A stretch of 56,698 nt of DNA from a virus (IMGVR_UViG_3300044646_000655:1-56698), one strand, 5' to 3'. Positions 2 through 53,979 are shown, counted from the first letter of the stretch. Program-made: numbers and translations. The notes: generated from the sequence alone by a model not told the origin.

Positions 2-3000
2 TACGAACAACTAAGTTCTAATCCAGAATTTTCCGCAATGTTTGGAAGTAAGACTGAATTTGAAAACTTCATGACTGAAAATCCAGACGCTAATGATATA
101 TTGAAAGAAGCATTCGATGTCAATCCGATAGAGATGGACTTAAAAAAAAAAGAAGAAACAGAAAGTTTTACTTCTCCATCTCCTTCGGTTGGTCAAACGA
201 TTGAAAATGTCGATGTTGCACCTCAGCCAGTTGCCCAAACGCCCCAATTGGGAGTTCAAGATAACAATATCAATAGGCAGCCGGACCCATACTTAAATAA
301 TTTAAGAAATAGTCTACAGACTCAGATAGAAAAAATTTCTAAAAACCAAAGCCCATTCGGTGCTTTTATGGAGATTCAGAAACTTTCTAAAAGTGCTGAG
401 TACCAAAAGTATAAAAATGCTGGTAAATTAGATGACCTTTTGGGTTCTTTGAATACATCATTCAACGATGTATTCTTACAGAATCCTTCGTATTCAAGTA
501 GTTTTAATACTCCTAACGCCAAAAAGGATTTGGAGAATATTGGTATCACATCAAAGGTATCGGTTGGTAAAGGTCCTGTAAAGACTCCTTTGCAAATGGC
601 CTCAGAACAAACTCAAGCAGATTTAGATTACAAAAGAAAACAAGAAATCGAAGCTAGATTATATAGTGGTGGAGACATTGCTCAAAGAGGTAAACCTGGT
701 TACAGAGTAGAGCAAGAAGCAAAACAAAAAGAAAATGCTGAGAATATTCAAGCACAGATAAAAGCACCCAAAGAGACGTTGTCTCAAGCGTATGCTACTG
801 ACTTTATGGGAAGAAGAGTTGAGAAGTCAGAGAGTAGAATGGAAGAGGCTGATGAGCAAATTCAACCATTGGTAAATGACTTGCGTGACTATGTTTACTT
901 GAATCAACAAAGAGCAACATCTCAAGGTGATCAAGAGTCTGATGAATTCGCTAGGCAAAATTTGGCAAACAAAATTTACGATAAAGTAAAAGATAATATC
1001 GTTCCAGAAATCCTATCTGATTTTAAAGATAACTACGATGATTTAAACAAAGAAGGTGTTTTCTTTAGAAGAGATATCGATGGGTTTGTTGATGTTGATA
1101 ATGGTTATATTGCCGATAAAATAGATAAGTACTTCTTGGGTAAAGAACCAGGAGAAAAAGGATATATTCCAAATACTCCAGAGGGTAATGAGTACAGATA
1201 TCAATTAAGAGGTATTATCGAGGGTCGATTGAGGGCTGAGTATCGGGCTCAGATAGACAAAAGAGTAATAGAAAAAGAGTTAGGTAAATTTAGTGCTTCT
1301 ACAGATGAAAAAGAAGTAGAGAACTCTATACTATTAATTAAAAATGATATTGAATCATCTTTAGAAAATAAACAGATGGAGTTCCAAAAGAACTTAGAGT
1401 CTGAAATAAAAGAAAGAACGAAGTATTTTGCAGAGCAAAAAAGTTTAATTGTTCCAGAAAACTTTGACACACCTGAGCAATATAATTTGGCAGCTCAGAA
1501 CTATAACGATGAACTTGCTGCTTACAATACTGAGGTAACTAATAAAATTGCACAATTTGGCGAAGAGTTTTCCAAGTTTCAAAAACTTAAAAAAGATGAG
1601 TATTCTCAGCGTTTAGATGAATTAGGAACTATTTTTCAAAATAGAACTTCTGAGGAATTTAAAGAATACAATAAAAAAGCATTAGAGGTTCTAAATAAGT
1701 ACAAGCAAAGTCAAGTAGATAAGAATGCATTTGATTTTACTGATGGCAGTAAAATTATGATGCTTGGAGACTTTGTTCAGTCTTCTCTAGCTAACTTTAT
1801 GAGATCATCTCTTGAGATGTCTGGTGTCAAAGATTTAGATATCGGATTCGTCAATAGAACAATTAATGATATGGCCACTTTTGCTAGTGGTAATGCTTAT
1901 GCTGGTAATAGTTTATCAAATGCTCGTTCTTTCTCAGAAGGCTTTGGTGCTTTTGCCCAACAGATGATTGACCAATTACCGACAATTGGTGGTGGTGCAC
2001 TCGCTACTTATTTAACTGGTAATCCTTACTTGGCTAGTACGTTTCTTATGTACACAGATATGGCAAGGGAAAGCGTGTCTGTTAGAGACGAGATTTTAAA
2101 TGGTGGAGGTAGTGTTGCTGATGCTGATCGTGCATCTAAAAGAATAGCACAAGCACATTTAGGTATGATGCCATTCTACTTTGCACAAGGTTCACTCTTG
2201 TTTGGTAATAAGGTTGGTTCTACTGCCTTTTGGAAGAATTACTTAAAAGCAACTCCTCTTGAGTATGGAGTAGAATTAACCCAAGAGATTATACAGCAAT
2301 ATACTAGTGACAAAGAGACAGGTAAATTAACTATACAATCGGTAAATCCAACAACAGGTGAAGTAGAGACAAGGGATAAGACTATGTTGGAGTATTTGGC
2401 TACAACAGGAAAAGATTTAGCAATAGATGTTTTACCTACTGTGGCAACCTTCGGTGGCGTTCAAGCAAGAGGTGAAACTACAAGGGCACTAAAGGTAGAA
2501 AGTGATTATGCAGACGTAAGTAAATTCCTAGGAGACTCTCATCAATTGGATTACTTCAATGATTTGTATTCAGTTATGGGTGAAAATGCTGCGTATGCAC
2601 TTCCTGATATGTTACGTTTTAGAGGTGAAATAACTCAGCAGCAATACGATGACTTAAAGAATAAACTTCCGAACTATATTCAGAAAATCCAAGAGGTACA
2701 AGATGCTGGTATTTTGAATTTAGATGATTCTAGATATTATTTGAATCGTCTACAAGAGAAAGAAATGTTAGAGCAGAAATTAAAAACTGCTCGGACTCAG
2801 ACATCTAAAAACGCAACACAAATCAAACTAGATGAGGTAAATCAAAATATAGATGATGTTATAAAGGGTAAGGAGTTATCTTATACTAAGATTTCATTTG
2901 CCAATGGAATGTCTGTAGTTTTAGACAATAAGCAAGTAGATGGTTATCTCAATAACTTAGAAAACCCTATTGCTAGAGTATTGACTAATGAATTTAGAGA

Positions 3001-6000
3001 TGGTAATGGTAAAGCAAAACCAATTGCTACTTTGCAGACCGATGATGCGAAGTTGAATAAGAAATTAAATAAGTTGTTTGATCTCAAGAAAGAAAGAGAA
3101 GGAGAGCAAACTGTTGAAGGTGTGGACTTAAAAGTAGAAAATAAGATTGACTTTAACAACGATGATAATATTCAAGATATTGCTAAAGAAAACAATTTAG
3201 ATGAGGCTGTTGTTCAGTCTCGATTTAACCAGGCAAAGAATGCTCAAGCTGTTCTAAATGAGAAAATGAGTGGTGTTGAGATAGTTTTGTTAGCAGATAA
3301 AGACTTTAAGGCATTGATGCCTAAGGTTGGAGGAAATGTTAATTCTAATGGAAACTTTGCATACACTTATGATAAAAAGACTAAGAGGTATAAAGCACAG
3401 ATACAAATTAATTTAGATAAATCAAACTCTAGAACTATAAATCACGAGTTAACACACGCCTTGCTTTTACAGAAGTTTGGTGAAGATGTATTGGCATTCC
3501 AAGATTTTCGCCAAGGGTTAACTAAGGTGATGAAGAATAGCGACATAAAAAACTTAGAGGAGTTTACTAGTCAGTATAATGAGTTAGATAAGTTTGAAGA
3601 GTTTATGGCTGAGGCTGCTGGTTTGTTGTCTCAAGAGTACGAGGGTTCGGTCTCAGATCTTAAGAAGAGCAAATTACAAAATATAGCATCTTACATCTCA
3701 AAGTATGTATCTAACTTAACCGGAGGTACTGTTAATCTATTTAGAGATTTAAATAATACCGATGCTGCAATAGAGTTCTTTAATACTTTGTCTCAGAAGA
3801 CAAATGCTACTCAAGAGACTCCTGTAGTAACGCCTGAGACCCAAGAAACCACAGTTACTCCAATGGAGAGTAAGTCTCAGCAAACACCCGAAGTCACTAC
3901 TCAACAAGAACAAATAACACAATCAATATATGAAAACAAACCAAGAAGAGAAATTTCCGACTTTGGAGGAATTTCAGAAGAACAATCCCTTTTACCAACG
4001 AGCGGCAGCAAGATTGGCATTTCGGGAGAAAAGGCGGCTTATGCGGCAAGAAGAGTTAGCACAGGAGAACGAAAAACAGGAAGCGTCCAAGAAGAAATAA
4101 AGGCTTTTAGGGCAATCCAAAGAGGAGAAAAACCCGATGCTGAGTATCTAAGAGAATGGGCCAAGAACAACAACTTTTTTATTGAAAGAAAGGAGTTGGA
4201 CAAAATGATTACCAAAAATAAACTCAAAGAACTTCCAGAAGGTACAGAATCTAGAGTTTTCCTTGGGTCTCAGAAAAACTTTGTTTACAAAATATCGAAT
4301 GGTAGTAAAATGGCTGCTACTTGGAATGATGTTTTCAAGAGAATAGCAGCTCATAATTTCTTGTTTCCTGATACCTCTTATGAGATTATGGGTTTTACCG
4401 ATATAGGTGATAATCTAGGTATGGTATTGAAGCAAGAATATATTCCTCACGAAACAGGATTAAATCAAGATGAGGTTTATGATTTAATGACCGCAAATGG
4501 CTTCGATACCAACCCTAAAGAAAAATGGAGAATGGAGGGTAGGAATAAGACATTAGGAGTTGTAATTGATGATTTACATTCTGGAAACGTAGTTAGGGAC
4601 TTGGATAGAAATCAAGAACCTGCTTTTATTGATCCATATATAACATTTTTACCCGATAGTTATTTAGAAAAACTAATCGAAAAGAATATCGATGAGGAAT
4701 TTTCAAAAGATACTGAATTAGAAAGTATCGCAATAAAGACAACAACACCACAAGAAGAAATAACTCCTACAGAAACGATTGAAGAAGCAGGAGAAATGAA
4801 TGAAGGGACAAAACCTTTTATTGAACAACCTATCGAAATAGATGTTGACATCTTAAGCAAATCTCAGTTGGGCCAAGAAATTAATATACCTTCAGAACAA
4901 TTATTAGGAGGTAAACAAGTAGATGTAATTGCCGAACTAAGAAAATTTAAAGAAGACAATGGTAGAAATCCAAAAGTTTGGTTTTGGATGGCTGATCAAT
5001 TAAAAAGAGGGATGTATGAAAACCCAAAAACTGGTGTTACACATTTCTTAGAGGGTGGTTATAATTTTGCTAATGACCCTAAAAATGTTGAAAATGAAGA
5101 AATTTGGGCAACTGGTTTAGATGAGAAATTATTAAATACAAGACTTCCTGCTACAGATTTTATTTGGTTAATGGCTGGGTCTCCGAATACATCTTTTAAC
5201 TTTTCTAAAGGTACAAGTAAAGCATTAGTCAAAGAAATTGAAGCAGGTCTTAAAAACAATATAGGGAAGACAATAGAAGGTGTATCGATAAATAATGGAA
5301 CATTTGATGAGTTTGTAAAAATTGCTGAAAAAATGCTACCATCAAATGTTAAGAAATGGGATAGTTTTTTAAGTGCAATCAAAAATCCTAATATGATTGA
5401 AACTTCTGCAAGAAAAACATTCGCAGAAACATTACTTCACGAGGGTGGCGATAAAAAAATTACATTACCATTTCAGCAATTTGTACATCAAGAGTTAGGT
5501 GTCCCCACTTTAAAAGAATTTTTACCACTAGTTAGAGAACCATTTCTGATTGAAAATGATTTCAAAAATGGAGATATGGGTATTTTACTTAAACCTAATG
5601 GTAAAGTAAAATTCAATAGTGGCTCACACGATACTTATCAAAATGCTATTTTAGGGGAGGTTGTTGGTTTCCCAAATAGAAAAATAAATGTAAAAGAAGT
5701 TTTACCTAAAAAAGCATTAGAGGTTATTTCGAAAGAAACTAATCTGCCTTTGGAAAAACCAAGTGAGCCAGCAATTATCAAAACTGCTGTTGGTGATTTG
5801 GGTAAGGTTTATGCGGCAGAGGATTTGAATACTTTTTTAAGTAAATCTCAGAAAGTTCGTTCGGAAAAATCTAGTGGTACAACTCAAGTCGCTACTACTA
5901 CTGGCTCTTATATAAAAGCTGCTAATTTAATTAAGGACATCCAAGGGGACGTTTTGGACTATGGGGCAGGATTGGGTCTCGGAACAGACGCAATGTCAAA

Positions 6001-9000
6001 TACTCTAGGACGTAAGGTAGATTCATTTGAACCTAATCCTGAAAGATGGCAAGGTAAAGAAGAAGCAACATTTACTAGTTCTGAAGATATAAATAAAAAA
6101 TACGATGGTATTGTTTCTTTAAATGTATTAAATGTTGTACCTAAAGATATCAGAGACGCAATCGTTACAGACATCTATGAGAAGTTAAATGTTGGCGGTA
6201 AGGCAGTAATTAGCACAAGAGGGTGGAATGGTGATGTCAAAGCGGCTAAGAATGCTGTTCTTGGTCCAGAAGAAAAAAGTCTTATTATAACTAGAAAACA
6301 AGGCGGTAAAGATGTAGAAGTATTTCAAAAAGGTTTCGATGGTAATGAATTAGTTGATTATGTTAAAGAGTTATTGGGTGATAAAGTAAATGTCGTTAAA
6401 AATAATACTTTTGGAAAAAGTGGTGTTATTATTACTAAGCAGCAAGAGTTCACTTCTAAATCACAACTAGATGCCAATCAGATTAATGCTGAGTTCAATC
6501 AAATAACTAATCAAGGTGGTTCGGTCTCAGATGCATTAGATAATCTTATTGACATGGGCTATGGTAAGAAAGACATCCAAGAACAACTTGGTAAGAATAC
6601 AATAAGTGATGACTTTTATAACCAAAGAATAACTCAAAAAGGATTCGAAGCATTTGAGAAAATCAGAGATACTTTTGCAGATAGAAAAACCAATCTAATA
6701 ACAGAGATTGAAAATATGTCCGGGATGGACATTGCAGATATTAGAGCAGACCTAAAGCAGAACGGATACAATGACGTAGAAATATTCAATGCGATGGTTA
6801 GTGGTGACTTTGCACTTAATGAAGATTTAGAAAATGTTTTCGGTGCTGAGTTTAGAAAGACTATCGCCAATCTTTTCGAAAGAGAGGGTGAAGTTGCTAA
6901 TTTAGAGTTCTTAGAAGACTTGACTGAAGAAGGTAGAGCATTAAAATCTACTCATAAATTAGGAGATATTGCAGGAATGTTCCAAGAGTCTGGTTTGGTG
7001 TTCGCAGATGCCTCTGTGATGATTGAGTATCTGATGAGTCAAATGGCATTGCCAACAGAAGTAGCGGCCAAAGAAATGCGTAGACAACTAGGTGAATTAC
7101 TTGATAAGTTAAAACAAGCACCTGGAATGTTCGAAAAAGAGGTCGAACTGAAAGAAGACTTGTTGAGATATTCTAATCTTTTGAGTTTCGCAGGTAGAAT
7201 ATTGGCTACAGGTCGTAACCTATTCCCTAAGTCTATGGCTTCTCTAATAGAGCAAAGTTTGGCTAAAGAGGGAATTGTCTTGACTCAGAAACAAAAAGAA
7301 ACACTTGCAGGTCTTGTTGCTGATTTTAATACTGCTACGGCTACAGAAAAGCAAGCACAAACTGAACTAAACAATGGAGACTTGTCTGACCAGGCTTTTC
7401 AAGCGTATCAAGCAGCACAGAAAAACTTAGGTTTGGCAAATGTTCGCCTTATGCAGTTCTTGAATAATAGAAAGCCAACATATTGGAATGAGGTATTAAC
7501 CTCTGGTGGTAGTAGAGGTTTGTTAAATTTAAGTACTGTTGTGTTGAGTATAACTTCGAACATAGAAAACTTATTGTATAGTTCATACGACCCAAATGGT
7601 ATTGCGATCAGAAAACTCAGAGATAGTTTTAAGGATGGAATAGCAGGAAATACTCTTAGCTTTAACAATTGGCGTTTGGCTTATTCTTTATCTAGAAGAA
7701 ATTCATTGAATGAAATGAATTTAATGGCTAAGTATGGTGCATTGGGTTCGGTTTCAGATAAAAACTTCGATAGTTTTGGTACTGTAAACTTCTTCCGTGA
7801 GCCTCAAATTGTTTACAAATGGGTTATTACTCAGATGGAAAAATTGTCAGGAAAACAAGCAGCAAATATGACTGACGAAGAGTTTGTAGATGCTATGGAC
7901 TTAACCTTACAAAGAATGAACAATCAAGCAGATCCGAAAGTAAGAAGTGGTAAAACTTATAATATTGCTAAAGCAATGTTTATGAGCACTTTGGGTATTG
8001 GCTCGCAAGTTACAGAAGGTGTCGGACGTACTATGGCATATGGTGGTGATATACTTTTTGGAAAGTTGGCTGCAACAAGAGCAATGCTTGACTACTTTAG
8101 CAATATAAACAATGAGAAATTCTCTCAAGGTTTATTTGAAAACTTTTTAGACGGTAAAAAAGACTTAAGTAAAGAGTCAATGCGTTCTATGATATCTATT
8201 ATGTCTACTTATGCAGAATTAAATTCTAAATTCGAACAAGCTGGTTTGAAGAGAGTATTTATGAATGACAATGGAGTAAGTAAGATGATTGGTAAGGGTA
8301 GAATGGGACTGAAGCAGAAAGTTCGTCAACTTGGGGCTCAGATTAACAAAGGCGAGGAGAAGAAATTATCACTTGCCGCTGTTAAAAAACAAGCATACCA
8401 AGTTGGTGATGTTGCATTTTGGACTCTTATGCCATTTATAAAAGTTCCTACTAACTTCTTGGGTTCTGCAATAAGTAAAACTGTTCCTTTTGTATCGATG
8501 CCTAAATATGTATTTAAGGAGTTTTCATATAGAAGAGAACTAGCTGAATTCAATAAAAAATATCCAGAAGGTAAAAAAATATCTGATAATAAGAAAAAAG
8601 CCTATGAGACAGCAAAAGTAGATTTATTCTTGAAGAAAAGGGATTTGAATAATAGTGCTGCTGAGGTTATAACTAGTATTGAGTTGAGCGTTATATCAAT
8701 GATGGCTTATGCTTCTGGTGCTTTATTGACCGGAGGTTCTCCAGAAAAAGAAAAAGAACTCAAGAAAAACGGATTAAAGGGTAACTCAATAAATTGGAGT
8801 TTGTTCTCTGAATTTATTGCTGCCGCCTTGAGGAATGAAGACTTGAAGAATTTCGCAGTTAAGAGAGGCGGTGTAGTTAAAAAAGGTGATAAAGTAATGT
8901 CTCTTGGTAACGCTGGTTTTATGGGGTATTCTATGGGGCTTTGGGGTTCTGTTTTAGACTCTGTAAAAGAAGGTAAAAATTCTAATATAGTAGAGGTAAT

Positions 9001-10627: not shown

Positions 10628-11013
10628 TGACTTTTGCTACTCTATATAGTTACATTGGAACTTACTTAGCGGTTCGTAAGGCTATCGTAGAAACTGAGGC
10701 CAAAATAGAAAATGCTAAGAAGTATGACAAGCCTTGTTGTGACCTAGAAAAAAGTCAGAAGAAAGGTTTGTTTTTATTGTGGTGCTTAGAAAATATCAAT
10801 TGCTACGAGGATCAAACAGATAGATTCCTTTCTGTAGCAAACAGATGGAGTAGAAATTGTGGGGATTGCAGCGTTTCACAAGCAGAAATAGATGCATTCT
10901 TATTGACAGAAAAAGGTGATGAACTAACTTACATTTCGGGTCTCAGCGGATATCTTTTGACTCAAAATGGAACTTGGTTATTACAACAAAACGGATATCA
11001 AATTATATTATAA
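10627..11013 (+). CDS. Hypothetical structural protein
   Basis: TAATG coupling gives start 10627; Cys-rich; C-terminal LLTQNG repeats. Confidence 0.55.
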   Translation: MTFATLYSYIGTYLAVRKAIVETEAKIENAKKYDKPCCDLEKSQKKGLFLLWCLENINCYEDQTDRFLSVANRWSRNCGDCSVSQAEIDAFLLTEKGDELTYISGLSGYLLTQNGTWLLQQNGYQIIL

Positions 11014-36761: not shown

Positions 36762-37043
36762 TTAATTTTTATATATTGCTAATACGCCTGGGTTAACCCA
36801 TTGAGGATTCCATCCAGCAGAATCTAATAAGTCTACCAATTCATTATGTACACCGAACTCCCAATGTTCATAGTTCTGAGTCCAATAGTTTAGGAGATCG
36901 TATCCATTGGATGCAGTAATGCCATCCTCTGCACCGATAACGAATGAGTCTTCTGATTCCTCTATCCATCCGTTACCATCTTCCATGATGGACATCTTAG
37001 GATACTTCTTCTGTAGTGTTCTTATTAATTGATTCTTGTTCAT
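36762..37043 (-). CDS. Hypothetical early protein
   Basis: FGVH..L...GW.P.W.NPG. Confidence 0.55.
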   Translation of the reverse strand: MNKNQLIRTLQKKYPKMSIMEDGNGWIEESEDSFVIGAEDGITASNGYDLLNYWTQNYEHWEFGVHNELVDLLDSAGWNPQWVNPGVLAIYKN

Positions 37044-40953: not shown

Positions 40954-41192
40954 TTGAATAATTGTTTAAGTTCTTGTTTAATTTGTTTGGCTTTATCACC
41001 TCGCCAGGCGGTTGCATTGGATAAGAAATAGGTTACGATTGTTTTGGCTGAGTCCGAACCATAGGTATCGTTAGGTTTGTCTAACCACATCATTGCTGAT
41101 AGGTATGGCATAGCACCATAGTTAACTTTCTTCCAATCGGCTTTGATATCCGATGCGATTTCGTGAATTGGTCTGTTAGTCGTTGTATTCAT
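40950..41192 (-). CDS. Conserved phage early protein
   Basis: RPIHEIA..I..DW..V..GA.PYL.AM..YFLSNA..WRG..AK..K.EL; start 41192. Confidence 0.65.
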   Translation of the reverse strand: MNTTTNRPIHEIASDIKADWKKVNYGAMPYLSAMMWLDKPNDTYGSDSAKTIVTYFLSNATAWRGDKAKQIKQELKQLFK

Positions 41193-41791: not shown

Positions 41792-41792
41792 A

Positions 41793-42506: not shown

Positions 42507-42832
42507 TTCAATAGGTCTTTATGTGAATTTCTAACAAGGTCAGTAATGAATTCGCCAATGGTATTGTACAACTTGTATCCTTTCTCACAAAATCCAAGAT
42601 CGTCAGAATACATTAGCATATAAGTTGCAGTTTCTTCTTCTTCATTACGCCATGAATTGGGTAAGAACAAGGTATAGGTTTGGGTCTCAGTCTCAATTTC
42701 CAGTGAGGGACTGATATCATTAAGGGAAGTAACATCAGTAATACCAATGTACAACTCTTCATGCTTAACTAAATTCTCTAATAGAGAATGCACATAGTTC
42801 AGATTCTCGTTCCAATAAAAATTATGTCTCAT
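42503..42832 (-). CDS. Hypothetical early protein
   Basis: Start MRHNFYW. Confidence 0.5.
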   Translation of the reverse strand: MRHNFYWNENLNYVHSLLENLVKHEELYIGITDVTSLNDISPSLEIETETQTYTLFLPNSWRNEEEETATYMLMYSDDLGFCEKGYKLYNTIGEFITDLVRNSHKDLLK

Positions 42833-43395: not shown

Positions 43396-43409
43396 TGGGA
43401 CTCAGACTA

Positions 43410-45119: not shown

Positions 45120-45455
45120 TCACAATTCCTTATGATTAGACAAATCTTCCTTAAGTCTACGGAGGAATGATTCTTCTCCATCGTCTCCTGATAATAACCA
45201 ATCTATACGATGGGCATATATCTGAGCCCTATGCAAAAGGTTAACTGCTTCCTTGAACTTCTCTATTACCTCTGGAGGATATTCATAGTGGTTTATGTGA
45301 CCTGGGTTTCTTTCTAGCCATTCTTTATTTACCCAGGGTTCTTGTCTGAGTTCTTCCTCTGTCTTTCTTCTACCGTTCTTTTCTATTTGGGTTTCTATGC
45401 TTTCTGCTATATACCCTATCTTGTATTGATCGTAATCAAAGTGTCCTCCGCTCAT
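45120..45455 (-). CDS. Conserved phage hypothetical protein
   Basis: MSGGHFDY...IDWLLSGDDGEE. Confidence 0.7.
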   Translation of the reverse strand: MSGGHFDYDQYKIGYIAESIETQIEKNGRRKTEEELRQEPWVNKEWLERNPGHINHYEYPPEVIEKFKEAVNLLHRAQIYAHRIDWLLSGDDGEESFLRRLKEDLSNHKEL

Positions 45456-45966: not shown

Positions 45967-46188
45967 TTAGTCTAAACTTAATCCGTCTTCATTCATCTTT
46001 TGATATAGCATATCTCTTATCTCTTCATATACCTTATATTGCTCTTCTGATAACTTATCGTTGTACTTAAGCTGAGACCGAAGATGTTGGTCGAAGTCCC
46101 AAACCATAAGTCTCCACTTCTGTCCATTGACAGCATCCTGGAAATCCTCTTGATCATCCGGGAGATTGAATTCTATTGTTGCTTTCAT
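45967..46188 (-). CDS. Conserved phage hypothetical protein
   Basis: MKATIEFNLPDD..F..A..G..W. Confidence 0.65.
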   Translation of the reverse strand: MKATIEFNLPDDQEDFQDAVNGQKWRLMVWDFDQHLRSQLKYNDKLSEEQYKVYEEIRDMLYQKMNEDGLSLD

Positions 46189-46991: not shown

Positions 46992-47160
46992 TTTGTTTTT
47001 TTTGTCTTGCTCTAGCTTCTGGAGTGCACTTGAATTCCAAGTAATATTTCTTCTGTTCCTTTAGAGTACACTCTATACACTTTTTACTGAGGCCGTCCTT
47101 GTTCCACTTGTGCTTGTAGTACTTGTCCGTTATCTTCTTGCACGTTTTGCATTCCTTCAT
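46948..47160 (-). CDS. Zinc-finger protein
   Basis: CKTC...KDGL...CIEC. Confidence 0.55.
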   Translation of the reverse strand: MKECKTCKKITDKYYKHKWNKDGLSKKCIECTLKEQKKYYLEFKCTPEARARQKKQNDKYRQLKQTTQKA

Positions 47161-47404
47161 TTTCTTTGTGTTTCATTACTTCCATTATGGCGTATACGTC
47201 TGTCATTGATACATTGGTTGTTCTGAGGCCGTCCCCAGTCTCAACAAAATTAATAGCATCCTCAACCGTAGTTGCATCTACAGGATAATTTTCCAAGACT
47301 CCCTTTTTATTTATCTGGAGTAGTTCTTCCATACTCTTCTTGCTCGCCCATACGAAAGTCTTCATATAGCGGAGGTATTGTTTTTTATCTATTTTCGAGT
47401 TCAT
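47084..47404 (-). CDS. Hypothetical protein
   Basis: ORF in operon. Confidence 0.5.
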   Translation of the reverse strand: MNSKIDKKQYLRYMKTFVWASKKSMEELLQINKKGVLENYPVDATTVEDAINFVETGDGLRTTNVSMTDVYAIMEVMKHKENEGMQNVQEDNGQVLQAQVEQGRPQ

Positions 47405-48320
47405 TTATAGTTGCAAATATACGGTAAGCGATTTGTGGAACAATGGCGTTACCATATCCCATTAAGGATTCTTTTCTCCACTTTGAAAAGGTAAGTCCGT
47501 CCAATTCAGAGGGAAGCCCATCATCTCCGCTACAAAGTGGGGATTTAACTGGGAACCAGGTCCAAGCCTCGGATGGTCCACCTTGTTGGGAATAAACATT
47601 GTCATCTGACGGAGAGTCATTTGTAGATTTACGTTGTTCTCTTTGTGTCTCTGACTCCTGGCGATATATGTCTCCGGCCTTGTTGCTGTGTTCCAATCTT
47701 GAGCGTTCGGAGTCGGAAGTATTCCCCTCTTGAAGATGAATCCTGTCGCTACCTCTTGTGCTAGTGTCCCGGAGTTCCCGAACTTCTGTTCCTTCTTGCT
47801 CAGATTCTCGCTGTATCCGTCCATCGCTGCTGGTGTCTTTAGCAACAATGTAAACCCTGTCCCTTTTGTGTGGGGCATTGATGCTGACAGCTGGAAGTAA
47901 AAACGTTTGGATTTCGTATCCTTCACTTTCCAAATCAGCGTACACCTCTTCGAGAACCAATCCGTCCGACCAACTAAGCAGTCCACGAACATTTTCCCCC
48001 ACGACATAGCGTGGTCTGATTTCTCTGATTGCTCTGTGGAACTCTGGCCAAAGATGGCGTTCGTCTTCTTTTCCCATCCTTTTTCCAGCGATGCTGAAGG
48101 GCTGGCAAGGAAATCCACCGGAGAGGACATCGATTTTTCCTCTCCAAATTTTAAAGTCAGTTGTTTTGATGTTGTCATAACTTTGGGCCTCAGGCCAATA
48201 AAAACTACATAATTGTCTACTAAAAGGATTGATATCGCAATGGAACTTATTGGTCCAACCCATCCATTCCGCTGCGAGATCAAATCCTCCTATGCCACTA
48301 AATAAACTACCGTGATTCAT
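47385..48320 (-). CDS. DNA (cytosine-5) methyltransferase, alpha chain
   Basis: SLFSGIGG, GGFPCQ, ENV, H.R.R, YGNAIVPQ; motif IX missing in this frame. Confidence 0.9.
   Translation of the reverse strand: MNHGSLFSGIGGFDLAAEWMGWTNKFHCDINPFSRQLCSFYWPEAQSYDNIKTTDFKIWRGKIDVLSGGFPCQPFSIAGKRMGKEDERHLWPEFHRAIREIRPRYVVGENVRGLLSWSDGLVLEEVYADLESEGYEIQTFLLPAVSINAPHKRDRVYIVAKDTSSDGRIQRESEQEGTEVRELRDTSTRGSDRIHLQEGNTSDSERSRLEHSNKAGDIYRQESETQREQRKSTNDSPSDDNVYSQQGGPSEAWTWFPVKSPLCSGDDGLPSELDGLTFSKWRKESLMGYGNAIVPQIAYRIFATINELENR
47462..48283 (-). CDS. Overlapping-frame beta chain of the C5-MTase (TRD + motif IX)
   Basis: LLKTP.A.D / LPTP.A.D repeats and LNPHFVAEMMGFPLNWT; start uncertain (possibly ATG 47878). 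Confidence 0.65.
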   Translation of the reverse strand: MISQRNGWVGPISSIAISILLVDNYVVFIGLRPKVMTTSKQLTLKFGEEKSMSSPVDFLASPSASLEKGWEKKTNAIFGQSSTEQSEKSDHAMSWGKMFVDCLVGRTDWFSKRCTLIWKVKDTKSKRFYFQLSASMPHTKGTGFTLLLKTPAAMDGYSENLSKKEQKFGNSGTLAQEVATGFIFKRGILPTPNAQDWNTATRPETYIARSQRHKENNVNLQMTLRQMTMFIPNKVDHPRLGPGSQLNPHFVAEMMGFPLNWTDLPFQSGEKNP

Positions 48321-48591
48321 GATACTCTCTTTTTAATTTTTCAGCAATCTCCATTGCTCTCGAATATGTCTTCATCTCCTTCCTCTTCCCAAATTCCCAT
48401 TTCTGATGACATTGCATACAATATAGCATCCAATTTTCGGGATGTGTCCTCAAACTCGGATACGCTCCTTTGGTAATGATATGCGATACAAACATCGGAC
48501 TGAAGTGTAGTAGTCGCAACCCACACTCCTCGCACTGGTGATTCTGCCGTGTTGACCACATATCTTTGTACCATTGGATATCTCCTTTCAT
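48307..48591 (-). CDS. HNH/NinG-like protein
   Basis: CEECG..SHI..R..PEN...C.QCH. Confidence 0.65.
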   Translation of the reverse strand: MKGDIQWYKDMWSTRQNHQCEECGLRLLHFSPMFVSHIITKGAYPSLRTHPENWMLYCMQCHQKWEFGKRKEMKTYSRAMEIAEKLKREYHESR

Positions 48592-49571
48592 TAACTTATT
48601 CTGAAAACTCTCGATCCGTTCTTATTGGGTCTCCAAGTTACCTTAGCCACTTCACTATTTATCATCGAGTAATTACCCATATGAGTTTTAATCATATTGG
48701 CGTGCTCTCTCTTACCATCTTCCATTGCTGAAATTTCAGAGTTGAGTTCTAAATAACGAGTGATGTGATGGTCAATCTCTGGACTACTTGCGATAGTCTT
48801 ATCTTCAGGATTGGAGAAACGCTCTGACAAATATTCAGAGTATGCTTCTGTCCCATCTGGCGGTGGAGCAAACTGATCGTAGTCTGTACCATTGGCAACG
48901 GCCTCACGACCTAACTTAACTCTTTCCCAAAAGTCCTCGGTGATATTGATAATGGAACTGATAATCTCCTCATCTACATCATACTCGTGTACCTTGAAGT
49001 TTCTTCCGTCCTCTAGTACAACCAGGTAACCCTTTTCAACTCCGAGGCCCATCATATAGGTTTGAAGCTGCAAGTAATAAGACGGAGGAATACCACCATC
49101 CCATTGCTTACTACTCCAACCACTAATGGTCTTAATCTCAGCGATTGCATCTACGTTATCTAGATTGATTGTGTTATTACGAACACGAATGTCCTTACTG
49201 ATAATCAATCGGTCTGGAGAAAAGAACAAGTGAGGAAAACTTGGGTTAACAATATAACCACTAGGCTCATACAAATGACGAACTTTTTTAGCCTCACGAA
49301 AGTTTTTAATCATTGTGGGCTCATCAGTCTCCCAAAACTCAAAGATATCTGCCACCGTCTGCTCAAGGATAGTACCCATAAACATAGGCATATTCTCAAC
49401 TTGCTTTTGTGGGATGATACCAATCTTTTGGTAGTATAACTCGGCCGGAGATTTCCAAGAGTTCACACCCATAAGTGTTCCAATCTCAGAAGCACCCAAA
49501 CCGTTATCTCTAAAGTTTAACCACTCTTGGTATTGCTTATCTTTACTGATTTGAATTATCTCTAGTTTCAT
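48591..49571 (-). CDS. YqaJ/lambda-type exonuclease
   Basis: WL..R..GLGASE, G..LE, SPDRL, EIKT, Y.LQ.Q.YM. Confidence 0.85.
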   Translation of the reverse strand: MKLEIIQISKDKQYQEWLNFRDNGLGASEIGTLMGVNSWKSPAELYYQKIGIIPQKQVENMPMFMGTILEQTVADIFEFWETDEPTMIKNFREAKKVRHLYEPSGYIVNPSFPHLFFSPDRLIISKDIRVRNNTINLDNVDAIAEIKTISGWSSKQWDGGIPPSYYLQLQTYMMGLGVEKGYLVVLEDGRNFKVHEYDVDEEIISSIINITEDFWERVKLGREAVANGTDYDQFAPPPDGTEAYSEYLSERFSNPEDKTIASSPEIDHHITRYLELNSEISAMEDGKREHANMIKTHMGNYSMINSEVAKVTWRPNKNGSRVFRIS

Positions 49572-50749: not shown

Positions 50750-51159
50750 CTCTAGATGAGCTAGAAGAGAAAATAATATCCATACGCAAAAGAGGACTTA
50801 ATATTTTATTAGAAAACGAACTCATCGCATTAGTCAGAAAAGACTACTACGATATCCAAATCGAAAAGCAGATTGAACATATGGGCAATCGTTTTCGAAA
50901 CAATGTATTATTTCTAAACTCTTTGCATAAGGAGAATTGTTCGGCCCAAAAAATCAAAGAGTTTATGGGTGTTGACATTGATGTGTCTGTCAATAAAATT
51001 TTCTATGGAGATAGAAATATCTACTCTTTAAAACAAGCTATAATCATTTCTGAGTTCTTCGGTTTGCCGGTAGAACTACTTTTATTTCAAGACTTAAGTG
51101 CTATCCGTGAAACAATCCAAAAAGAATACCCTACTCTTTTCAGACAGAGTAGAAATTAA
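50746..51159 (+). CDS. XRE-like HTH protein
   Basis: SLKQAIIISEFFGLPVELL. Confidence 0.55.
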   Translation: MTLDELEEKIISIRKRGLNILLENELIALVRKDYYDIQIEKQIEHMGNRFRNNVLFLNSLHKENCSAQKIKEFMGVDIDVSVNKIFYGDRNIYSLKQAIIISEFFGLPVELLLFQDLSAIRETIQKEYPTLFRQSRN

Positions 51160-51502
51160 ACCATTGTCTGTTAATCAAGCCTGGCAAGGTAAAAGATTCA
51201 AAACCAAAAATTATCAAAACTACGAAAAGGAGGTTCTCCTAAAATTACATCCCTACACGCTTGTTATCAAAGAGCCAGTCGAACTAATTATCATTGTTGG
51301 TTTTAGCAATGCGGCCTCAGATGCAGACAACGCTGTAAAACCTTTTCTTGACATCCTTCAGAAAAAATATGACTTCAACGATAAGTATATCTATCGCCTT
51401 GTTGTTGAGAAAGTTATAGTCAAAAAAGGAGAGGAGTTTATAGAATTTTTCATAAAAAATTATGAGCCTCTTGAATACAATGTTGCAAATTCTGAAAATT
51501 GA
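51098..51502 (+). CDS. rusA: RusA-like Holliday junction resolvase
   Basis: KPLSVN.AW...KT..Y, DADN.VKPFLD.L..Y.FNDK.I. Confidence 0.8.
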   Translation: MLSVKQSKKNTLLFSDRVEIKPLSVNQAWQGKRFKTKNYQNYEKEVLLKLHPYTLVIKEPVELIIIVGFSNAASDADNAVKPFLDILQKKYDFNDKYIYRLVVEKVIVKKGEEFIEFFIKNYEPLEYNVANSEN

Positions 51503-51798: not shown

Positions 51799-53979
51799 AT
51801 GGCGTTTACTATTACAAATCAACCAAAACAATTCTTAACGGAAAGCGAAAAGAATAAAATTTGGTACAAGGAGAACATCCAGTTCATAATGTCCCATTTC
51901 AACAAGAGACACGATAGGATTTCAAGAATTAGAAAAAAAGATGACTTAATGAATCCCATTGACGAGGTAGTTAGAATGTTTACTTACTACTTGGGGAGAC
52001 AAGACAACAAAGATTATTACTACACTACTCAAGACCAAAACAATTGTGATTTACCTACGGTATGGATCAATGGTCAAAAAGTTACATCTCTAGTTGACTA
52101 CATGGTAGGTAATGCTATCAAAATGGTGGAGAATATTGAACCAGTAGTAAAGGCTCAGAGTAAAAACGCAATCAATAAAAAAACGGACATTTTAGAAAAG
52201 GCATTGATGAAGTTTGATATGCCGGAACTATTTGAGATGCTTATGGAGTTTGGTTTGGAATACAAACCACTTGGGCCTCAGACTCCTCAGATGGAAATAC
52301 CCGAAGATGTTTATAGATACATGGAGTATGACTATCAAGAATACTCTGAAGTACTAGCTACTAAAATCTGTGAAGATATATTAAACAGAAATTCTTATAA
52401 GCACAAACTAAAGCAAGCTTTCTTATATACCTTGCTAGGAGGATATGTAGGAATAGAAAATAGAATTGAAAATGGTAAACAATACTTTGATCCTGTATTA
52501 CCTCATAACTTGATTGTAGACAGAGCAAAGGATGATGACTTTAATTCTGAGGCCCGATTCGTAGGAAAAGTAGATTGGTTAAACATCACCGACATAGTGG
52601 AGCGTTATCAAGATTACTTGACCACAGAAGAACTTGAGGAGATTAAGCAAATCAATATGAACAACTTGTATCAGTTGCTTGATTTGACTACTCACCCATA
52701 CGCTACAAACTGGGCGTTCAATGTAAATAATCTTCCAACCTTGGCGTGTGTTACTGGCTATTGGATTGGTATGAAAGATTTGGGTTATGAGAAGTCTAAA
52801 GACAAATTTGGAAATACTCACTACCAAAGAATCCGTAACGGAAGAAAAGGTCAGTATTGGACAAAGACTGTATACAAAGCTACTCTCATAGGCAACAAGT
52901 ATGTTGTAGAACATGGAGAGACTACGAACATTGTTCGTAAGCATGATAATCCTGGAGATGTAGAATTACCATTGAAAGTATTTATTCCGAATATGGTAAT
53001 GGGTGAGAATCGTTCTGTTGTTGCTCGTTTGCATCAGCACCAAGATCGTATTGATTACATCACCAATGAAATCACTAAGATGATGACTCGTGCCAAAGGT
53101 AAGGTGTATATCATCAACCGACAAAAACTTGGTACTTCATCTGCAAAAGATGTTATTACAGATTTCGAAAGAATGGGTATCCACATCACAGATGGTTCTG
53201 CTACCGGAGAAGATTTTGTAAGTGGGCAAGAGGCTCGTATGGTTGAAGTAGTTGATATGACACTAGATCCAAATGTGCAGCAACTTGTTGCACTAAGAAG
53301 AGAAGAAGAGCGTTTGATGGAAGAGATTGTAAACATTCCAAAGATTGCTCTCGGACAACAAAGCGGATATGTTGGTGCTAAAACTCAAGCAGGTACTATT
53401 GCACAATCTAACTTGGGAACAACTTATTTGTACCAAGGCTTTATTGAGTTCTTTGAAAAACAATTAGCATTTGCTTTGAACCAATATAAAATTTCATTGA
53501 TGGATGAGTCTGAAGATGAAATACCAATTGTAGGTACAAGAGGTAAAGAGTGGTTGAAGATTACCAAAGACTTCCAGTTTGAAGAACTAGGTGTTTACAT
53601 CCGTGTTAAAGACTTTATTGATGACCAATCTAAGGAGAGGTTGTTAATGTTGGCACAAGCTGCAATGCAGAACCAACAGATTGATATGTTAGACTACATC
53701 AGAATAGAAAAGTCTAAGACATATACTGAAATCTTGAATGAGTTGGAATACTCTTTGAATAAGAGAAGAAGAGACCAGGAAAAGCAGCAAGCCATAATGC
53801 AAATGATGCAAGAGGCACAAATGCAACAACAGATGGCTCAACAACAAGACTTAGCGTCAATGAAGGAAGAGGGAGCAAATTACAGAAAAGAATTAGACGT
53901 TCAAGGTAAGGTTGTAGATACTGCAATGAAGCAAGCATTATCTGAAGGTGGTGAACCACCCCAAGAAATGATGATGTAA
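51799..53979 (+). CDS. Portal protein
   Basis: 726 aa, S.V.RL...Q, GQQSGY..A.TQ, Q/M-rich C-terminus; portal-scaffold-MCP order. Confidence 0.75.
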   Translation: MAFTITNQPKQFLTESEKNKIWYKENIQFIMSHFNKRHDRISRIRKKDDLMNPIDEVVRMFTYYLGRQDNKDYYYTTQDQNNCDLPTVWINGQKVTSLVDYMVGNAIKMVENIEPVVKAQSKNAINKKTDILEKALMKFDMPELFEMLMEFGLEYKPLGPQTPQMEIPEDVYRYMEYDYQEYSEVLATKICEDILNRNSYKHKLKQAFLYTLLGGYVGIENRIENGKQYFDPVLPHNLIVDRAKDDDFNSEARFVGKVDWLNITDIVERYQDYLTTEELEEIKQINMNNLYQLLDLTTHPYATNWAFNVNNLPTLACVTGYWIGMKDLGYEKSKDKFGNTHYQRIRNGRKGQYWTKTVYKATLIGNKYVVEHGETTNIVRKHDNPGDVELPLKVFIPNMVMGENRSVVARLHQHQDRIDYITNEITKMMTRAKGKVYIINRQKLGTSSAKDVITDFERMGIHITDGSATGEDFVSGQEARMVEVVDMTLDPNVQQLVALRREEERLMEEIVNIPKIALGQQSGYVGAKTQAGTIAQSNLGTTYLYQGFIEFFEKQLAFALNQYKISLMDESEDEIPIVGTRGKEWLKITKDFQFEELGVYIRVKDFIDDQSKERLLMLAQAAMQNQQIDMLDYIRIEKSKTYTEILNELEYSLNKRRRDQEKQQAIMQMMQEAQMQQQMAQQQDLASMKEEGANYRKELDVQGKVVDTAMKQALSEGGEPPQEMMM

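What the first reader, a model, noticed from the sequence alone, without database searches (positions are those of the whole stretch)
598..52554. Genome-wide over-representation of the octamer GGNCTCAG
Hand count gives about 45 copies. GGTCTCAG x17 (3649, 4266, 6523, 9482, 10939, 12509, 16430, 18544, 29078, 29279, 31678, 41919, 42683; minus strand 24101, 32051, 35483, 46072), GGCCTCAG x12, GGACTCAG x9, GGGCTCAG x7. At an estimated 35% GC about 2 are expected. Copies occur on both strands, in different reading frames and in intergenic DNA (22588, 43398), usually preceded by G or C, so they are not protein-driven. Inference: either a dispersed binding or recombination signal (Chi-like, nucleoid, packaging or ejection) or a HIP1-like mutational footprint of methylation-coupled repair. 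The phage encodes three C5-MTases plus a virion MTase domain, and the motif contains the known restriction sites GGTCTC and CTCAG.
Basis: partly seen in the sequence, partly recalled or inferred. Interest (0 to 1): 0.8.

Follow-up and report, generated by a model that had tools for sequence, protein, structure and literature searches.

The report
Selected dispersed octamer in phage clade
A freshwater phage and its relatives keep the short DNA word GGNCTCAG about once per kilobase across their genomes, on both strands and under natural selection, which marks it as an unreported genome-wide signal whose reader protein is still unknown.

Summary
GGNCTCAG occurs 46 times in this 56.7 kb phage genome against about 3.5 expected, and it survives three codon-preserving nulls. 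It is the top gapped 8-mer in 1.01 Mb of non-redundant relatives, 721 copies against 55. The full site is W(-9)..TTS-GGNCTC-V-G-A.

Copies lie in every feasible frame, on both strands, and at similar density in coding and non-coding DNA. They are spaced more evenly than random. They are retained between relatives 1.5 to 4 times more often than codon-phase-matched neighbours.

One distant relative, G407, carries a dialect, GGNCTCAC, 67 copies against 7 for the control. A sister lineage, G408, carries nothing.

The methyltransferase or repair-footprint idea is not supported. Motif-rich genomes lack the MTases and no precursor word is depleted. HNH and RusA are not determinants either.

The host is unidentified. 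One co-binned MAG and 401 Pseudomonadota genomes do not show the trait.

Best reading: a selected, lineage-specific protein-recognition site on duplex DNA, most likely a Chi-like self-DNA signal for recombination-dependent replication or repair.

The parts
598..605 (+). motif copy GGCCTCAG
   Evidence: sense, frame 2
1245..1252 (+). motif copy GGGCTCAG
   Evidence: sense
2793..2800 (+). motif copy GGACTCAG
   Evidence: sense
3649..3656 (+). motif copy GGTCTCAG
   Evidence: sense
   Evidence: antisense
4266..4273 (+). motif copy GGTCTCAG
6523..6530 (+). motif copy GGTCTCAG
8334..8341 (+). motif copy GGGCTCAG
9482..9489 (+). motif copy GGTCTCAG
10694..10701 (-). motif copy GGCCTCAG
   Evidence: outside my gene calls
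10939..10946 (+). motif copy GGTCTCAG
   Evidence: outside my gene calls
12509..12516 (+). motif copy GGTCTCAG
12689..12696 (-). motif copy GGCCTCAG
   Evidence: antisense
13541..13548 (+). motif copy GGACTCAG
13925..13932 (+). motif copy GGCCTCAG
16430..16437 (+). motif copy GGTCTCAG
   Evidence: at a gene boundary
17685..17692 (+). motif copy GGGCTCAG
18544..18551 (+). motif copy GGTCTCAG
22588..22595 (+). motif copy GGGCTCAG, intergenic, kept in 19 of 19 aligned relatives
23486..23493 (+). motif copy GGCCTCAG in the RNR gene, kept in 21 of 22
24101..24108 (-). motif copy GGTCTCAG
   Evidence: kept in 11 of 23
24502..24509 (+). motif copy GGGCTCAG
   Evidence: kept in 6 of 24
26664..26671 (-). 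motif copy GGCCTCAG
28266..28273 (+). motif copy GGACTCAG in the large terminase gene, kept in 42 of 45
29078..29085 (+). motif copy GGTCTCAG, antisense in the polymerase gene, kept in 5 of 47
29279..29286 (+). motif copy GGTCTCAG, kept in 2 of 47 (turnover)
30571..30578 (-). motif copy GGGCTCAG
31678..31685 (+). motif copy GGTCTCAG, kept in 34 of 38
32051..32058 (-). motif copy GGTCTCAG, kept in 2 of 37
32863..32870 (-). motif copy GGACTCAG
34186..34193 (-). motif copy GGACTCAG
35483..35490 (-). motif copy GGTCTCAG
36876..36883 (-). motif copy GGACTCAG
39001..39008 (+). motif copy GGACTCAG
41048..41055 (-). motif copy GGACTCAG
41919..41926 (+). motif copy GGTCTCAG
42683..42690 (+). motif copy GGTCTCAG
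43398..43405 (+). motif copy GGACTCAG, intergenic
45222..45229 (-). motif copy GGGCTCAG
46072..46079 (-). motif copy GGTCTCAG
47087..47094 (-). motif copy GGCCTCAG
47223..47230 (-). motif copy GGCCTCAG, kept in 11 of 12
48186..48193 (+). motif copy GGCCTCAG
51313..51320 (+). motif copy GGCCTCAG, inside the RusA ORF
52274..52281 (+). motif copy GGCCTCAG
52547..52554 (-). motif copy GGCCTCAG
47084..47404 (-). context only: c106, a 106-aa ORF of unknown fold. Present in G407, absent from G408, but also undetected in motif-bearing L088. A weak candidate reader, not shown.
   Evidence: model pLDDT 84.6 with no significant fold match
51098..51502 (+). context only: RusA-family Holliday-junction resolvase. 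Core in the clade and in G407, absent from G408, but not sufficient for the motif.
48591..49571 (-). context only: YqaJ-type exonuclease, part of the phage's own recombination module

Best explanation
SHOWN. GGNCTCAG is the core of a longer asymmetric site: W at -9, TT at -3 and -2, S at -1, then GGNCTC, then V (A far above C and G), then G, then A at +1. This freshwater phage clade keeps it at about 0.6 to 0.8 copies per kb across the whole genome. Copies occur in either orientation, in any reading frame, and equally in coding and non-coding DNA. Existing copies are under purifying selection, individual copies turn over while density is held, and spacing is more even than random. One distant relative uses a one-base dialect (GGNCTCAC followed by W) at about 1 per kb. 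A sister lineage with the same replication and packaging genes has no such word. The trait does not depend on the phage's methyltransferases, its HNH endonuclease or its RusA resolvase.

INFERRED. The word is the binding or recognition site of a sequence-specific protein acting on phage DNA. That protein is not identified and co-evolves with the lineage or with its host. I think its most likely job is a Chi-like 'this is phage DNA' signal. It would tell a DNA-tracking end-processing or replication-recombination machine to switch from degradation to repair or replication restart. The machine could be a host RecBCD/AddAB-type helicase-nuclease or the phage's own YqaJ-centred module. Such a system needs a site within about 1 kb of any break or collapsed fork, on either strand.

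ODDS. About 0.9 that this is a selected DNA-level recognition signal. About 0.3 that its role is Chi-like as described.
For: Enrichment and codon independence.
- 46 copies against 3.46 expected, and against 6.6, 7.6 and 14.2 under three codon-preserving nulls.
- 721 against 55 in 1.01 Mb of non-redundant relatives, the top gapped 8-mer at z about 90.
- All five feasible strand/frame classes are enriched 7.7 to 15.7 times over synonymous shuffles.
- Density is 0.73 per kb in coding and 0.60 per kb in non-ORF DNA.
- Three essentially complete relatives carry 39 to 45 copies against 0 to 2 for the reversed-word control.

Selection.
- Whole-motif retention against phase-matched neighbours: 0.455 against 0.107 at 65-75% identity, 0.622 against 0.218 at 75-85%, 0.887 against 0.598 at 85-97%.
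- Per-base identity in the closest band is 0.970 against 0.912.
- Turnover: some sites are kept in 19 of 19 or 42 of 45 alignments, others in 2 of 47.

Even spacing.
- Gaps under 50 bp: 5 against 25.2 expected. Gaps of 800-1600 bp: 209 against 150.4. CV 0.87 against 1.02.
- In the window, CV 0.77 against 0.96, P = 0.044.

Graded recognition.
- Position 7 counts are A 721, C 94, G 67, T 47. The C and G variants share the flanks.

Dialect and absence.
- G407 has 67 GGNCTCAC against 7 for the control, with the same T-S-GGNCTC-A core. It has only 12 GGNCTCAG against 6.
- G408 has 4 and 6 copies of the two words, which is background.

Fit to a Chi-like role.
- Chi is the one documented case of an octamer accumulated by phage genomes. 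LLS has 23 Chi, one per 1.86 kb, against 0.85 expected. MD8 has 32 (PMC12315714, passages read).
- The moderate bias to the sense, G-rich strand resembles what I recall for Chi in bacterial chromosomes, about 75% on the leading strand. That figure is recalled and comes from no call.
- Under this reading a dialect per lineage, and its absence from a sister lineage, would follow from different hosts or a different strategy.
Against: No reader protein was found.

Chi-rich phages in the literature differ in three respects (PMC12315714).
- Their sites are 87 to 100% in one orientation. Here the split is 63:37 in the window and 64 to 69% in complete relatives.
- Their sites cluster at one genome end. 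Here they are evenly spread.
- They lack their own recombination genes. This phage has a YqaJ exonuclease and RusA.

The host is unknown, so identity with a host Chi is untested.
- The one co-binned MAG is 64.8% GC and has 31 copies against 27 to 75 expected in 400 kb.
- None of 401 sampled Pseudomonadota genomes comes near the phage's density. The best ratio, G093, was an artefact of the control.
- That scan could still miss a host with only a modest, Chi-like 3 to 5-fold enrichment.

The retention test uses pairs of sequences that are not phylogenetically independent.

The dialect rests on one genome. No relatives of G407 were found.
Confidence: 0.32

Rival explanations
1. Priming sites. The word is the template recognition and primer-coding sequence of the phage's T7-gp4-type primase-helicase. 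It would be kept at Okazaki-fragment spacing on whichever strand serves as lagging-strand template.
For: The phage encodes a Toprim + DnaB-type protein with an N-terminal zinc ribbon, CPKC..KCHHC. Density of about one site per 1.2 kb over both strands and over-even spacing fit a need for regular priming. The bias to the sense, G-rich strand is what co-directional replication would give. Information in the logo decays on the 5' side only, from -1 out to -9, as a primer-templating stretch might. G407's ribbon differs (KCWNSPC), in step with its dialect.
Against: Known DnaG/gp4-type primases read trinucleotides, extended to about 5 nt in T7. That is recalled and comes from no call. A requirement for 7 of 8 bases has no precedent. 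Motif-less G408 has nearly the same zinc ribbon as the main clade. The antisense strand of the late region has gaps of 7 to 11 kb, yet antisense copies are still enriched about 8-fold.
Confidence: 0.15
2. Site-specific nick sites, as in phages T5, tf and phiKMV. A phage nickase would cut one strand at each copy in the packaged DNA.
For: Phage tf has a similar layout, with convergent gene sets and terminal repeats. It carries 14 nicks at a 9-mer consensus, TACT/RTGMC, with lineage variants of the consensus and no known function (PMC3517423, abstract and passages). A conserved 94-aa HNH endonuclease lies in the recombination module. The shortage of very close neighbours, 5 against 25 gaps under 50 bp, would avoid double-strand breaks.
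Against: All nick consensus sites in tf, T5 and phiKMV lie on one strand. Here the split is 29:17. The number of sites is 3 to 10 times higher. G407 keeps its dialect without a detectable homolog of the HNH. Nicks could not be examined, because every public run is held only as assembled contigs.
Confidence: 0.12
3. Kin-DNA or architectural sites. An orientation-blind DNA-binding protein, used for condensation, compartment targeting, packaging specificity or segregation, recognises the word. This would be a phage counterpart of uptake-sequence or Noc/SlmA-type dispersed sites.
For: The anatomy is closest to DUS/USS: a non-palindromic word of about 10 to 12 bp, both orientations, any frame, even spacing, and dialects that share a core and follow phylogeny (PMC3630211, abstract and passages). 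As in most DUS dialects, one frame is barred by a TGA. The weak fold-search rows for c106 include many winged-helix DNA binders, none of them significant.
Against: No binding protein was identified. c106 is not detectable in at least one motif-bearing locus, L088. An orientation-blind reader does not predict the 1.6-fold sense bias beyond coding constraint or the 80% sense bias in late genes.
Confidence: 0.15
4. Host trait mirrored passively. The word is hyper-abundant in the host chromosome, for example as an uptake sequence, and the phage shares it through recombination or shared mutation and repair bias.
For: The host is unknown, so this cannot be excluded. A dialect per lineage and absence from a sister lineage could reflect different hosts.
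Against: Purifying selection on the phage's own copies and even spacing argue for function in the phage. The co-binned MAG and 401 sampled Pseudomonadota genomes lack it. Non-clade phages carrying a related RusA, fetched from the same viral-contig collection, have 3 copies against 9 expected in 286 kb.
Confidence: 0.1
5. Mutational footprint of methylation-coupled (VSP/HIP1-like) repair driven by the phage's C5-methyltransferases.
For: The window encodes one C5-MTase and two small MTase-like proteins. Many palindromic restriction-type words are avoided.
Against: Motif-rich genomes lack these genes: G403, G402 with a stop codon, and G407. No C-to-T or G-to-A one-off word is depleted on the scale needed; the ratios are mostly 0.5 to 1.5. 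Single-mismatch orthologs are spread over all positions. The word is not palindromic. Spacing is more even than random, which a passive process does not predict.
Confidence: 0.04

Closest known systems
Chi octamers accumulated by phage genomes (lambdoid phage LLS with 23 copies of GCTGGTGG; Pseudomonas phage MD8 with 32 copies of GCTGGCGC; PMC12315714, passages read; PMC3784561 seen only as a search listing)
   Same: A non-palindromic octamer, strongly enriched over expectation in a phage genome at about one per 1 to 2 kb, inside genes. The sequence varies with lineage or host.
   Different: In those phages Chi is 87 to 100% in one orientation, clustered at one end, and found in phages that lack their own recombination genes. 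Here the split is 63:37, spacing is even, and YqaJ and RusA are present. The word is not a known Chi and no RecBCD/AddAB link has been tested.
DNA uptake sequences and their dialects (DUS in Neisseriaceae, PMC3630211; USS in Pasteurellaceae, recalled)
   Same: A dispersed word of about 10 to 12 bp with a strict core and graded flanks. Both orientations, any frame, one frame barred by TGA. Dialects differ by single bases and follow phylogeny. A density near one per kb and over-even spacing are recalled for DUS/USS and come from no call.
   Different: DUS/USS are traits of competent bacterial chromosomes, read by a pilin or uptake receptor. Here the carrier is a virulent-looking phage, and no uptake process or receptor is known or implied.
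Consensus nick sites of phages tf, T5 and phiKMV (PMC3517423)
   Same: A phage-specific asymmetric consensus of 7 to 19 nt scattered through the genome, lineage variants of the consensus, unknown function. Phage tf shares the layout of convergent gene blocks with terminal repeats.
   Different: Those sites number 4 to 14 and all lie on one strand. Here there are 39 to 67 per genome on both strands. Physical nicks are untested.
HIP1 (GCGATCGC) of cyanobacteria
   Same: An octamer at about one per kb that is indifferent to reading frame.
   Different: HIP1 is palindromic, is a host-chromosome trait, and is tied to a cognate methyltransferase. This word is asymmetric and independent of MTase content. 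GATC itself is avoided in this phage.
Stoperators of cluster A mycobacteriophages (recalled; no call)
   Same: An asymmetric site of about 13 bp present in tens of copies across a phage genome and read by one phage protein.
   Different: As I recall them, stoperators are almost all in one orientation relative to transcription and lie mostly between genes. Here about 65% are sense and about 90% are inside genes.

Membership tests
Chi hotspot accumulated in a phage genome | Octamer strongly over-represented relative to composition | tested here: met
   46 against 3.46; 721 against 55
Chi hotspot accumulated in a phage genome | Nearly all copies in the one active orientation relative to the exposed DNA end (20 of 23 in LLS, 32 of 32 in MD8) | tested here: not met
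   29:17 in the window; 30:14, 25:14 and 31:14 in essentially complete relatives
Chi hotspot accumulated in a phage genome | Copies concentrated near one genome end | tested here: not met
   Spacing is more even than random
Chi hotspot accumulated in a phage genome | Phage lacks its own recombination module and RecBCD inhibitor | tested here: not met
   YqaJ exonuclease and RusA resolvase are present. Inhibitors were not searched for.
Chi hotspot accumulated in a phage genome | Word is the host's Chi and alters RecBCD/AddAB activity | not testable with these tools
   Host unknown
Uptake-sequence-like dispersed signal (DUS/USS) | Asymmetric word of about 10 to 12 bp at roughly one per kb, both orientations, any frame | tested here: met
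Uptake-sequence-like dispersed signal (DUS/USS) | Dialects with a shared core that follow phylogeny | tested here: met
   GGNCTCAG against GGNCTCAC with shared T-S-GGNCTC-A. There are only two dialects, and one of them rests on a single genome.
Uptake-sequence-like dispersed signal (DUS/USS) | Carried by a naturally competent bacterium and read by its uptake receptor | tested here: not met
   The carrier is a phage genome. No receptor was sought.
Phage consensus nick sites (T5, tf, phiKMV) | All consensus copies on one strand | tested here: not met
   29 on + and 17 on -, against all 14 on the top strand in tf
Phage consensus nick sites (T5, tf, phiKMV) | Physical single-strand interruption at the site in virion DNA | not testable with these tools
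   Only assembled contigs are available
HIP1-like methylation/repair footprint | Palindromic word | tested here: not met
   GGNCTCAG differs from its reverse complement, CTGAGNCC
HIP1-like methylation/repair footprint | Co-occurrence with a cognate methyltransferase | tested here: not met
   G403, G402 and G407
HIP1-like methylation/repair footprint | Depletion of the one-step precursor words | tested here: not met
   Transition one-off words total 478 observed against about 558 expected. No single position dominates.
Primase recognition site (T7 gp4 type) | Template word at which the primase starts primers | not testable with these tools
   A primase with a zinc ribbon is present. The ribbon is also present in motif-less G408.

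The most novel reading that the evidence does not exclude
The clade carries its own genome-wide 'self' signature, a phage-owned counterpart of Chi or DUS. A phage-encoded reader that is still unidentified would use it to tell phage DNA from host DNA during replication, recombination, degradation or packaging. Reader and word would co-evolve into dialects (...CAG-A in the main clade, ...CAC-W in G407). The system would be absent from a sister lineage that shares the same replication and packaging genes.
Probability: 0.35. Interest if true: 0.85.

Novelty: new variant of a known kind. Interest (0 to 1): 0.74.

Why it matters
Dispersed 'identity' words such as Chi, DUS/USS and KOPS are among the few known cases where a whole genome is shaped by one protein-DNA interaction. 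In phages the only well-understood case is borrowed host Chi.

This case differs. It is a word of about 17 bits, with more than a thousand copies across a freshwater phage clade. It is under measurable selection, evenly spaced, tolerant of orientation, and has a one-base dialect in a distant relative.

If it is the host's Chi or uptake word, the motif becomes a sequence-only tool for assigning hosts to uncultured phages.

Either way it is directly testable by pull-down, nick or methylome mapping, and primase or nuclease assays. It also gives annotators a simple marker for this clade.

Tried and rejected
Codon or protein artefact: rejected.

Methyltransferase dependence: rejected.

One-step repair footprint: rejected.

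HNH endonuclease as determinant: no homolog was detected in G407.

RusA (51098-51502) as determinant. It looked promising: present in 53 of 53 portal loci and in G407, absent from G408. However, 24 non-clade loci with a RusA at 53 to 64% identity have 3 copies against 9.0 expected in 286 kb. It is therefore not sufficient.

c123 (26123-26494). It is universal where the region is covered and absent from G408. Its fold matches T7 lysozyme and Amidase_2 (1lba, E 1e-3), so it is not a DNA reader.

c106 (47084-47404). The model is confident (pLDDT 84.6), but Foldseek found no significant match (best E 2.9). It is undetectable in L088, L096, L103 and L062.

L182's GGACC signal: a collagen-like tandem repeat, not a dispersed motif.

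G093's high ratio in the 401-genome scan: an artefact of the reversed-word control.

Host identification failed by every route tried.
- No tRNA genes.
- The nearest cultured phages have about 31% polymerase identity and mixed hosts.
- The portal has no GenBank phage match.
- The only prokaryote-collection hits are two contigs in a 64.8% GC MAG, probably mis-binned.
- The protein atlas gave only viral clusters.

Read-level test for nicks or ends: not possible, because every run is held as contigs. Laying contigs of 4 runs on 22001-42000 gave short low-depth pieces, with 1 listed change each in X2 to X4 and about 440 in X8. It gave nothing usable about the sites.

Relatives of G407: none in the viral or metagenome collections.

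Literature: no paper in the searched library contains the strings GGNCTCAG or CTGAGNCC. The mixed search returned only primer-type matches in the rows listed.

Supplementary tables could bear on the comparisons of density and orientation but were not opened. These are the Chi counts per phage in PMC12315714, the DUS counts in PMC3630211, and the nick figures in PMC3517423.

Full report
WHAT THE WINDOW IS. The window is the whole assembly, one contig of 56,698 bp. CheckV rates it 83% complete. GC is 36.9%.

It is a tailed phage with no close relative among GenBank phages. The + strand genes at 1-28.7 kb include a 3,333-aa polyvalent protein with a Kinase-PolyVal domain, tail proteins, a class II ribonucleotide reductase, a MazG-like pyrophosphatase and the large terminase. 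The - strand genes at 28.7-50.4 kb include:
- DNA polymerase (phrog_1252);
- a T7-gp4-type primase-helicase;
- a serine recombinase;
- one C5-methyltransferase;
- two small phrog_757 methyltransferase-like paralogs;
- a 94-aa HNH endonuclease;
- a YqaJ exonuclease.

The + strand genes from 50.5 kb include a RusA resolvase, the portal and an SU10-like capsid protein. Complete relatives are 67 to 69 kb with direct terminal repeats. Public runs that hold the sequence are mostly labelled lake or freshwater metagenomes.

GGNCTCAG occurs 46 times, 29 on + and 17 on -. Dinucleotide-preserving shuffles give 3.46 +/- 1.99, and none of 100 reaches 46.

Three codon-preserving nulls give 6.6, 7.6 and 14.2 copies, with maxima of 13, 14 and 23 in 500 shuffles each. 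The copies outside my gene calls were held fixed, which inflates these expectations.

The copies sit in sense frames 0, 1 and 2 (5, 14 and 9), on the antisense strand (12) and outside my gene calls (6). The one antisense frame never used contains TGA. All seven fixed bases are required.

THE SITE IS LONGER THAN THE OCTAMER, AND IT IS CLADE-WIDE. Searches with the polymerase and the portal fetched 103 related viral loci at 57 to 99% amino-acid identity. Together they hold 939 copies against 67 expected.

After masking everything at 95% identity or more to an earlier sequence, 1.01 Mb remains with 721 copies, 0.71 per kb. In that set GGNCTCAG is by a wide margin the top gapped 8-mer, 721 against 55 under an order-3 Markov model. 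Every other top word is a fragment of it.

The pooled logo is as follows:
- W at -9 (85%);
- T at -3 (59%) and at -2 (60%);
- S at -1 (83%);
- N is T 42%, C 25%, G 18%, A 16%;
- A at +1 (66%).

Position 7 is A in 721 copies, C in 94, G in 67 and T in 47. The C and G variants carry the same flanks. This looks like graded recognition by a protein. Some members, L005 and L030, use the C variant about as often as the A form.

IT IS A DUPLEX-DNA SIGNAL WITH ONLY MODERATE POLARITY. Pooled copies are 425 sense, 226 antisense and 70 outside ORFs. Density is 0.73 per kb in ORFs and 0.60 per kb outside them.

Against synonymous shuffles, all five feasible strand/frame classes are enriched 7.7 to 15.7 times. 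Sense is enriched 12.8 times and antisense 7.9 times. The sense to antisense ratio is 2.64 in the late-gene block and 1.21 in the early block. About 60% of copies lie on one absolute strand. Complete relatives show 64 to 69% on one strand and about 80% sense in late genes.

IT IS UNDER SELECTION. Individual sites behave bimodally. Some are kept in 19 of 19, 42 of 45 or 34 of 38 alignments, and others in 2 of 47 or 2 of 37. Density is held throughout the clade.

In all-against-all alignments, the seven fixed positions are all retained far more often than the same pattern shifted by multiples of three bases: 0.455 against 0.107, 0.622 against 0.218, and 0.887 against 0.598 in three identity bands. 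Divergence at motif bases is about a third of the neighbours' in the closest band. These pairs are not phylogenetically independent, but the effect is large.

Spacing is more even than random. There are 5 gaps under 50 bp against 25.2 expected, and 209 gaps of 800-1600 bp against 150.4. The CV is 0.87 against 1.02.

NOT A METHYLATION OR REPAIR FOOTPRINT.
- No one-off word is depleted on the scale needed.
- Orthologous alleles that differ at a single position are spread over all seven positions.
- G403 is complete and has no full C5-MTase, yet has 39 copies. G402's C5-MTase has an in-frame stop, and it has 44.
- G407 has no homolog of any of the window's three MTases or of the HNH, and no PF00145 or PF01555 match.

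A DIALECT AND AN ABSENCE. A polymerase profile reached more distant phages. All eight newly fetched loci whose polymerase matched at 49 to 69% identity carry the word (L151-L153, L159, L168, L172, L176, L178).

A sister group at 41% identity (L154-L158 and L173, which is G408: 64.9 kb, 95% complete, 38% GC) does not. It has 0 to 2 copies per locus, and 6 in the whole of G408 against 5 for the control. It has no other dominant word either.

G407 (66.8 kb, 98% complete, 45% GC, 40% polymerase identity) has 67 copies of GGNCTCAC against 7 for the control, on both strands. Its logo is R, W, T (72%), S (97%), GGNCTC, AC, W. Its second variant is GGNCTCCC, with 20 copies. So it has the same core and the same A-over-C preference at position 7, with a changed last base and +1. 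Its polarity is 37 sense, 23 antisense and 7 intergenic. More distant outgroups at 31 to 38% identity have 0 or 1 copies.

Profile HMMs built from clade homologs found three window ORFs that are present in G407 and absent from G408.
- c123 (26123-26494) is T7-lysozyme-like.
- c106 (47084-47404) has a confident model but no significant fold match. It is missing from at least one well-covered motif-bearing locus.
- c134 (51098-51502) is a RusA resolvase.

RusA was tested directly. 24 non-clade loci with a RusA at 53 to 64% identity have 3 copies against 9.0 expected, while 37 further clade loci have 301 against 24. Many of those 37 overlap contigs fetched earlier.

The primase's zinc ribbon is nearly the same in motif-less G408. 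No reader has been identified. With only one motif-less lineage, the gene-content contrast is a single comparison.

HOST. The host remains unknown. The only prokaryote-collection hits are two phage contigs binned into a MAG whose chromosome is 64.8% GC and has the word at or below expectation. None of 401 evenly drawn Pseudomonadota genomes approaches the phage's density. The best ratio was an artefact of the control. This does not exclude a host in another phylum, or one with only modest enrichment.

COMPARISON WITH KNOWN SYSTEMS. The only documented octamer accumulated by phage genomes is host Chi. LLS has 23 copies, one per 1.86 kb. Twenty of the 23 are in one orientation, half lie in the last 22% of the genome, and the phage has no Rec module. 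MD8 has 32 of 32 in one orientation (PMC12315714). This phage matches on enrichment and density. It fails on polarity, on clustering and on the absence of recombination genes.

In anatomy the closest match is DUS/USS with its dialects (PMC3630211), but those belong to competent bacteria. Phage nick consensus sites are similar in kind but lie on one strand only and are far fewer (PMC3517423). HIP1 is palindromic and tied to an MTase. No paper in the library contains the word.

VERDICT. The word is a selected, lineage-specific recognition site on duplex DNA, with odds of about 0.9. Its function is inferred only. I favour a Chi-like self-DNA signal for recombination-dependent replication or repair, at about 0.3. 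Behind that come:
- priming sites (0.15);
- architectural or kin-DNA binding sites (0.15);
- nick sites (0.12);
- a passively mirrored host trait (0.1);
- a methylation footprint (0.04).

Noticed in passing
whole window and the non-redundant clade set: Strong avoidance of short palindromes typical of restriction sites. In the window (counts over both strands): CATG 86 against 402, AGCT 160 against 350, GATC 188 against 410, plus ACGT, TCGA, GGTACC, TCCGGA and AACGTT. In the clade set: CTGCAG 50 against 407, plus ACATGT, CTCGAG and CGTACG.
   Followed up: no
non-redundant clade set: Hexamers of the form CGNCG with a flank are almost absent. TCGCCG is 1 against 108, TCGGCG 1 against 97, ACGCCG 3 against 104 and CGACGA 3 against 103 under an order-3 Markov model. 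This is far stronger than general CpG or palindrome avoidance and is unexplained.
   Followed up: no
L241, L243, L188 (part of G408): The hexamer GGNCTC is under-represented in non-clade phages and in the motif-less sister lineage. Counts are 0 against 8.7, 1 against 12.6 and 7 against 17.1 with dinucleotide shuffles. It is also low in most polymerase outgroups. This was not controlled for codon usage. If it is real, the word the clade accumulates is one that other phages avoid.
   Followed up: partly
L182:21030-21540 (G407): A collagen-like tandem repeat with 9-bp periodicity (GGACCNGTN units), presumably a Gly-X-Y tail-fibre segment. It produced a false dominant motif in k-mer statistics.
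   Followed up: yes
L104, L105 (G001): Two contigs of this phage clade (about 37 to 40% GC in the clade) are binned into a MAG whose 530 kb chromosome contig is 64.8% GC. This is probably a binning error rather than a host link.
   Followed up: partly
window:26123-26494: A 123-aa protein two genes upstream of the large terminase has a T7-lysozyme/Amidase_2 fold (1lba, E 1e-3) although Pfam and PHROGs miss it. It is universal in the clade, and the window also has two other lysis-type enzymes, at 11711-12361 and 33384-33881.
   Followed up: partly
window:35882-36508 and 39429-40088: Two paralogous small (208 and 219 aa) phrog_757 'DNA methyltransferase' proteins. The first has only a sub-threshold PF00145 match, and neither has a PDB sequence match. 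A homolog of the first is found in all five long relatives.
   Followed up: partly
G402:C1:42787-43332: The C5-methyltransferase of this complete relative carries an in-frame TAA. It may be a pseudogene or a recoded gene.
   Followed up: no
window:39170-39427: A contig of a 90 to 95% identical relative in run X8 skips 256 bases here. That removes the 81-aa ORF at 39179-39424, which also has no homolog in any fetched locus. It looks like a small indel-type accessory gene.
   Followed up: no
window:22588-22611: The fully conserved intergenic copy (19 of 19) is followed, by eye, by a possible short inverted repeat, GGGCT..AGCCC. This was not folded or tested.
   Followed up: no
window:38-10039: The 3,333-aa polyvalent protein is open at its 5' end, and the homolog in G403 is 3,863 aa. 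Only a Kinase-PolyVal domain is confidently assigned, plus a weak methyltransferase-like stretch at residues 1967-2060.
   Followed up: partly
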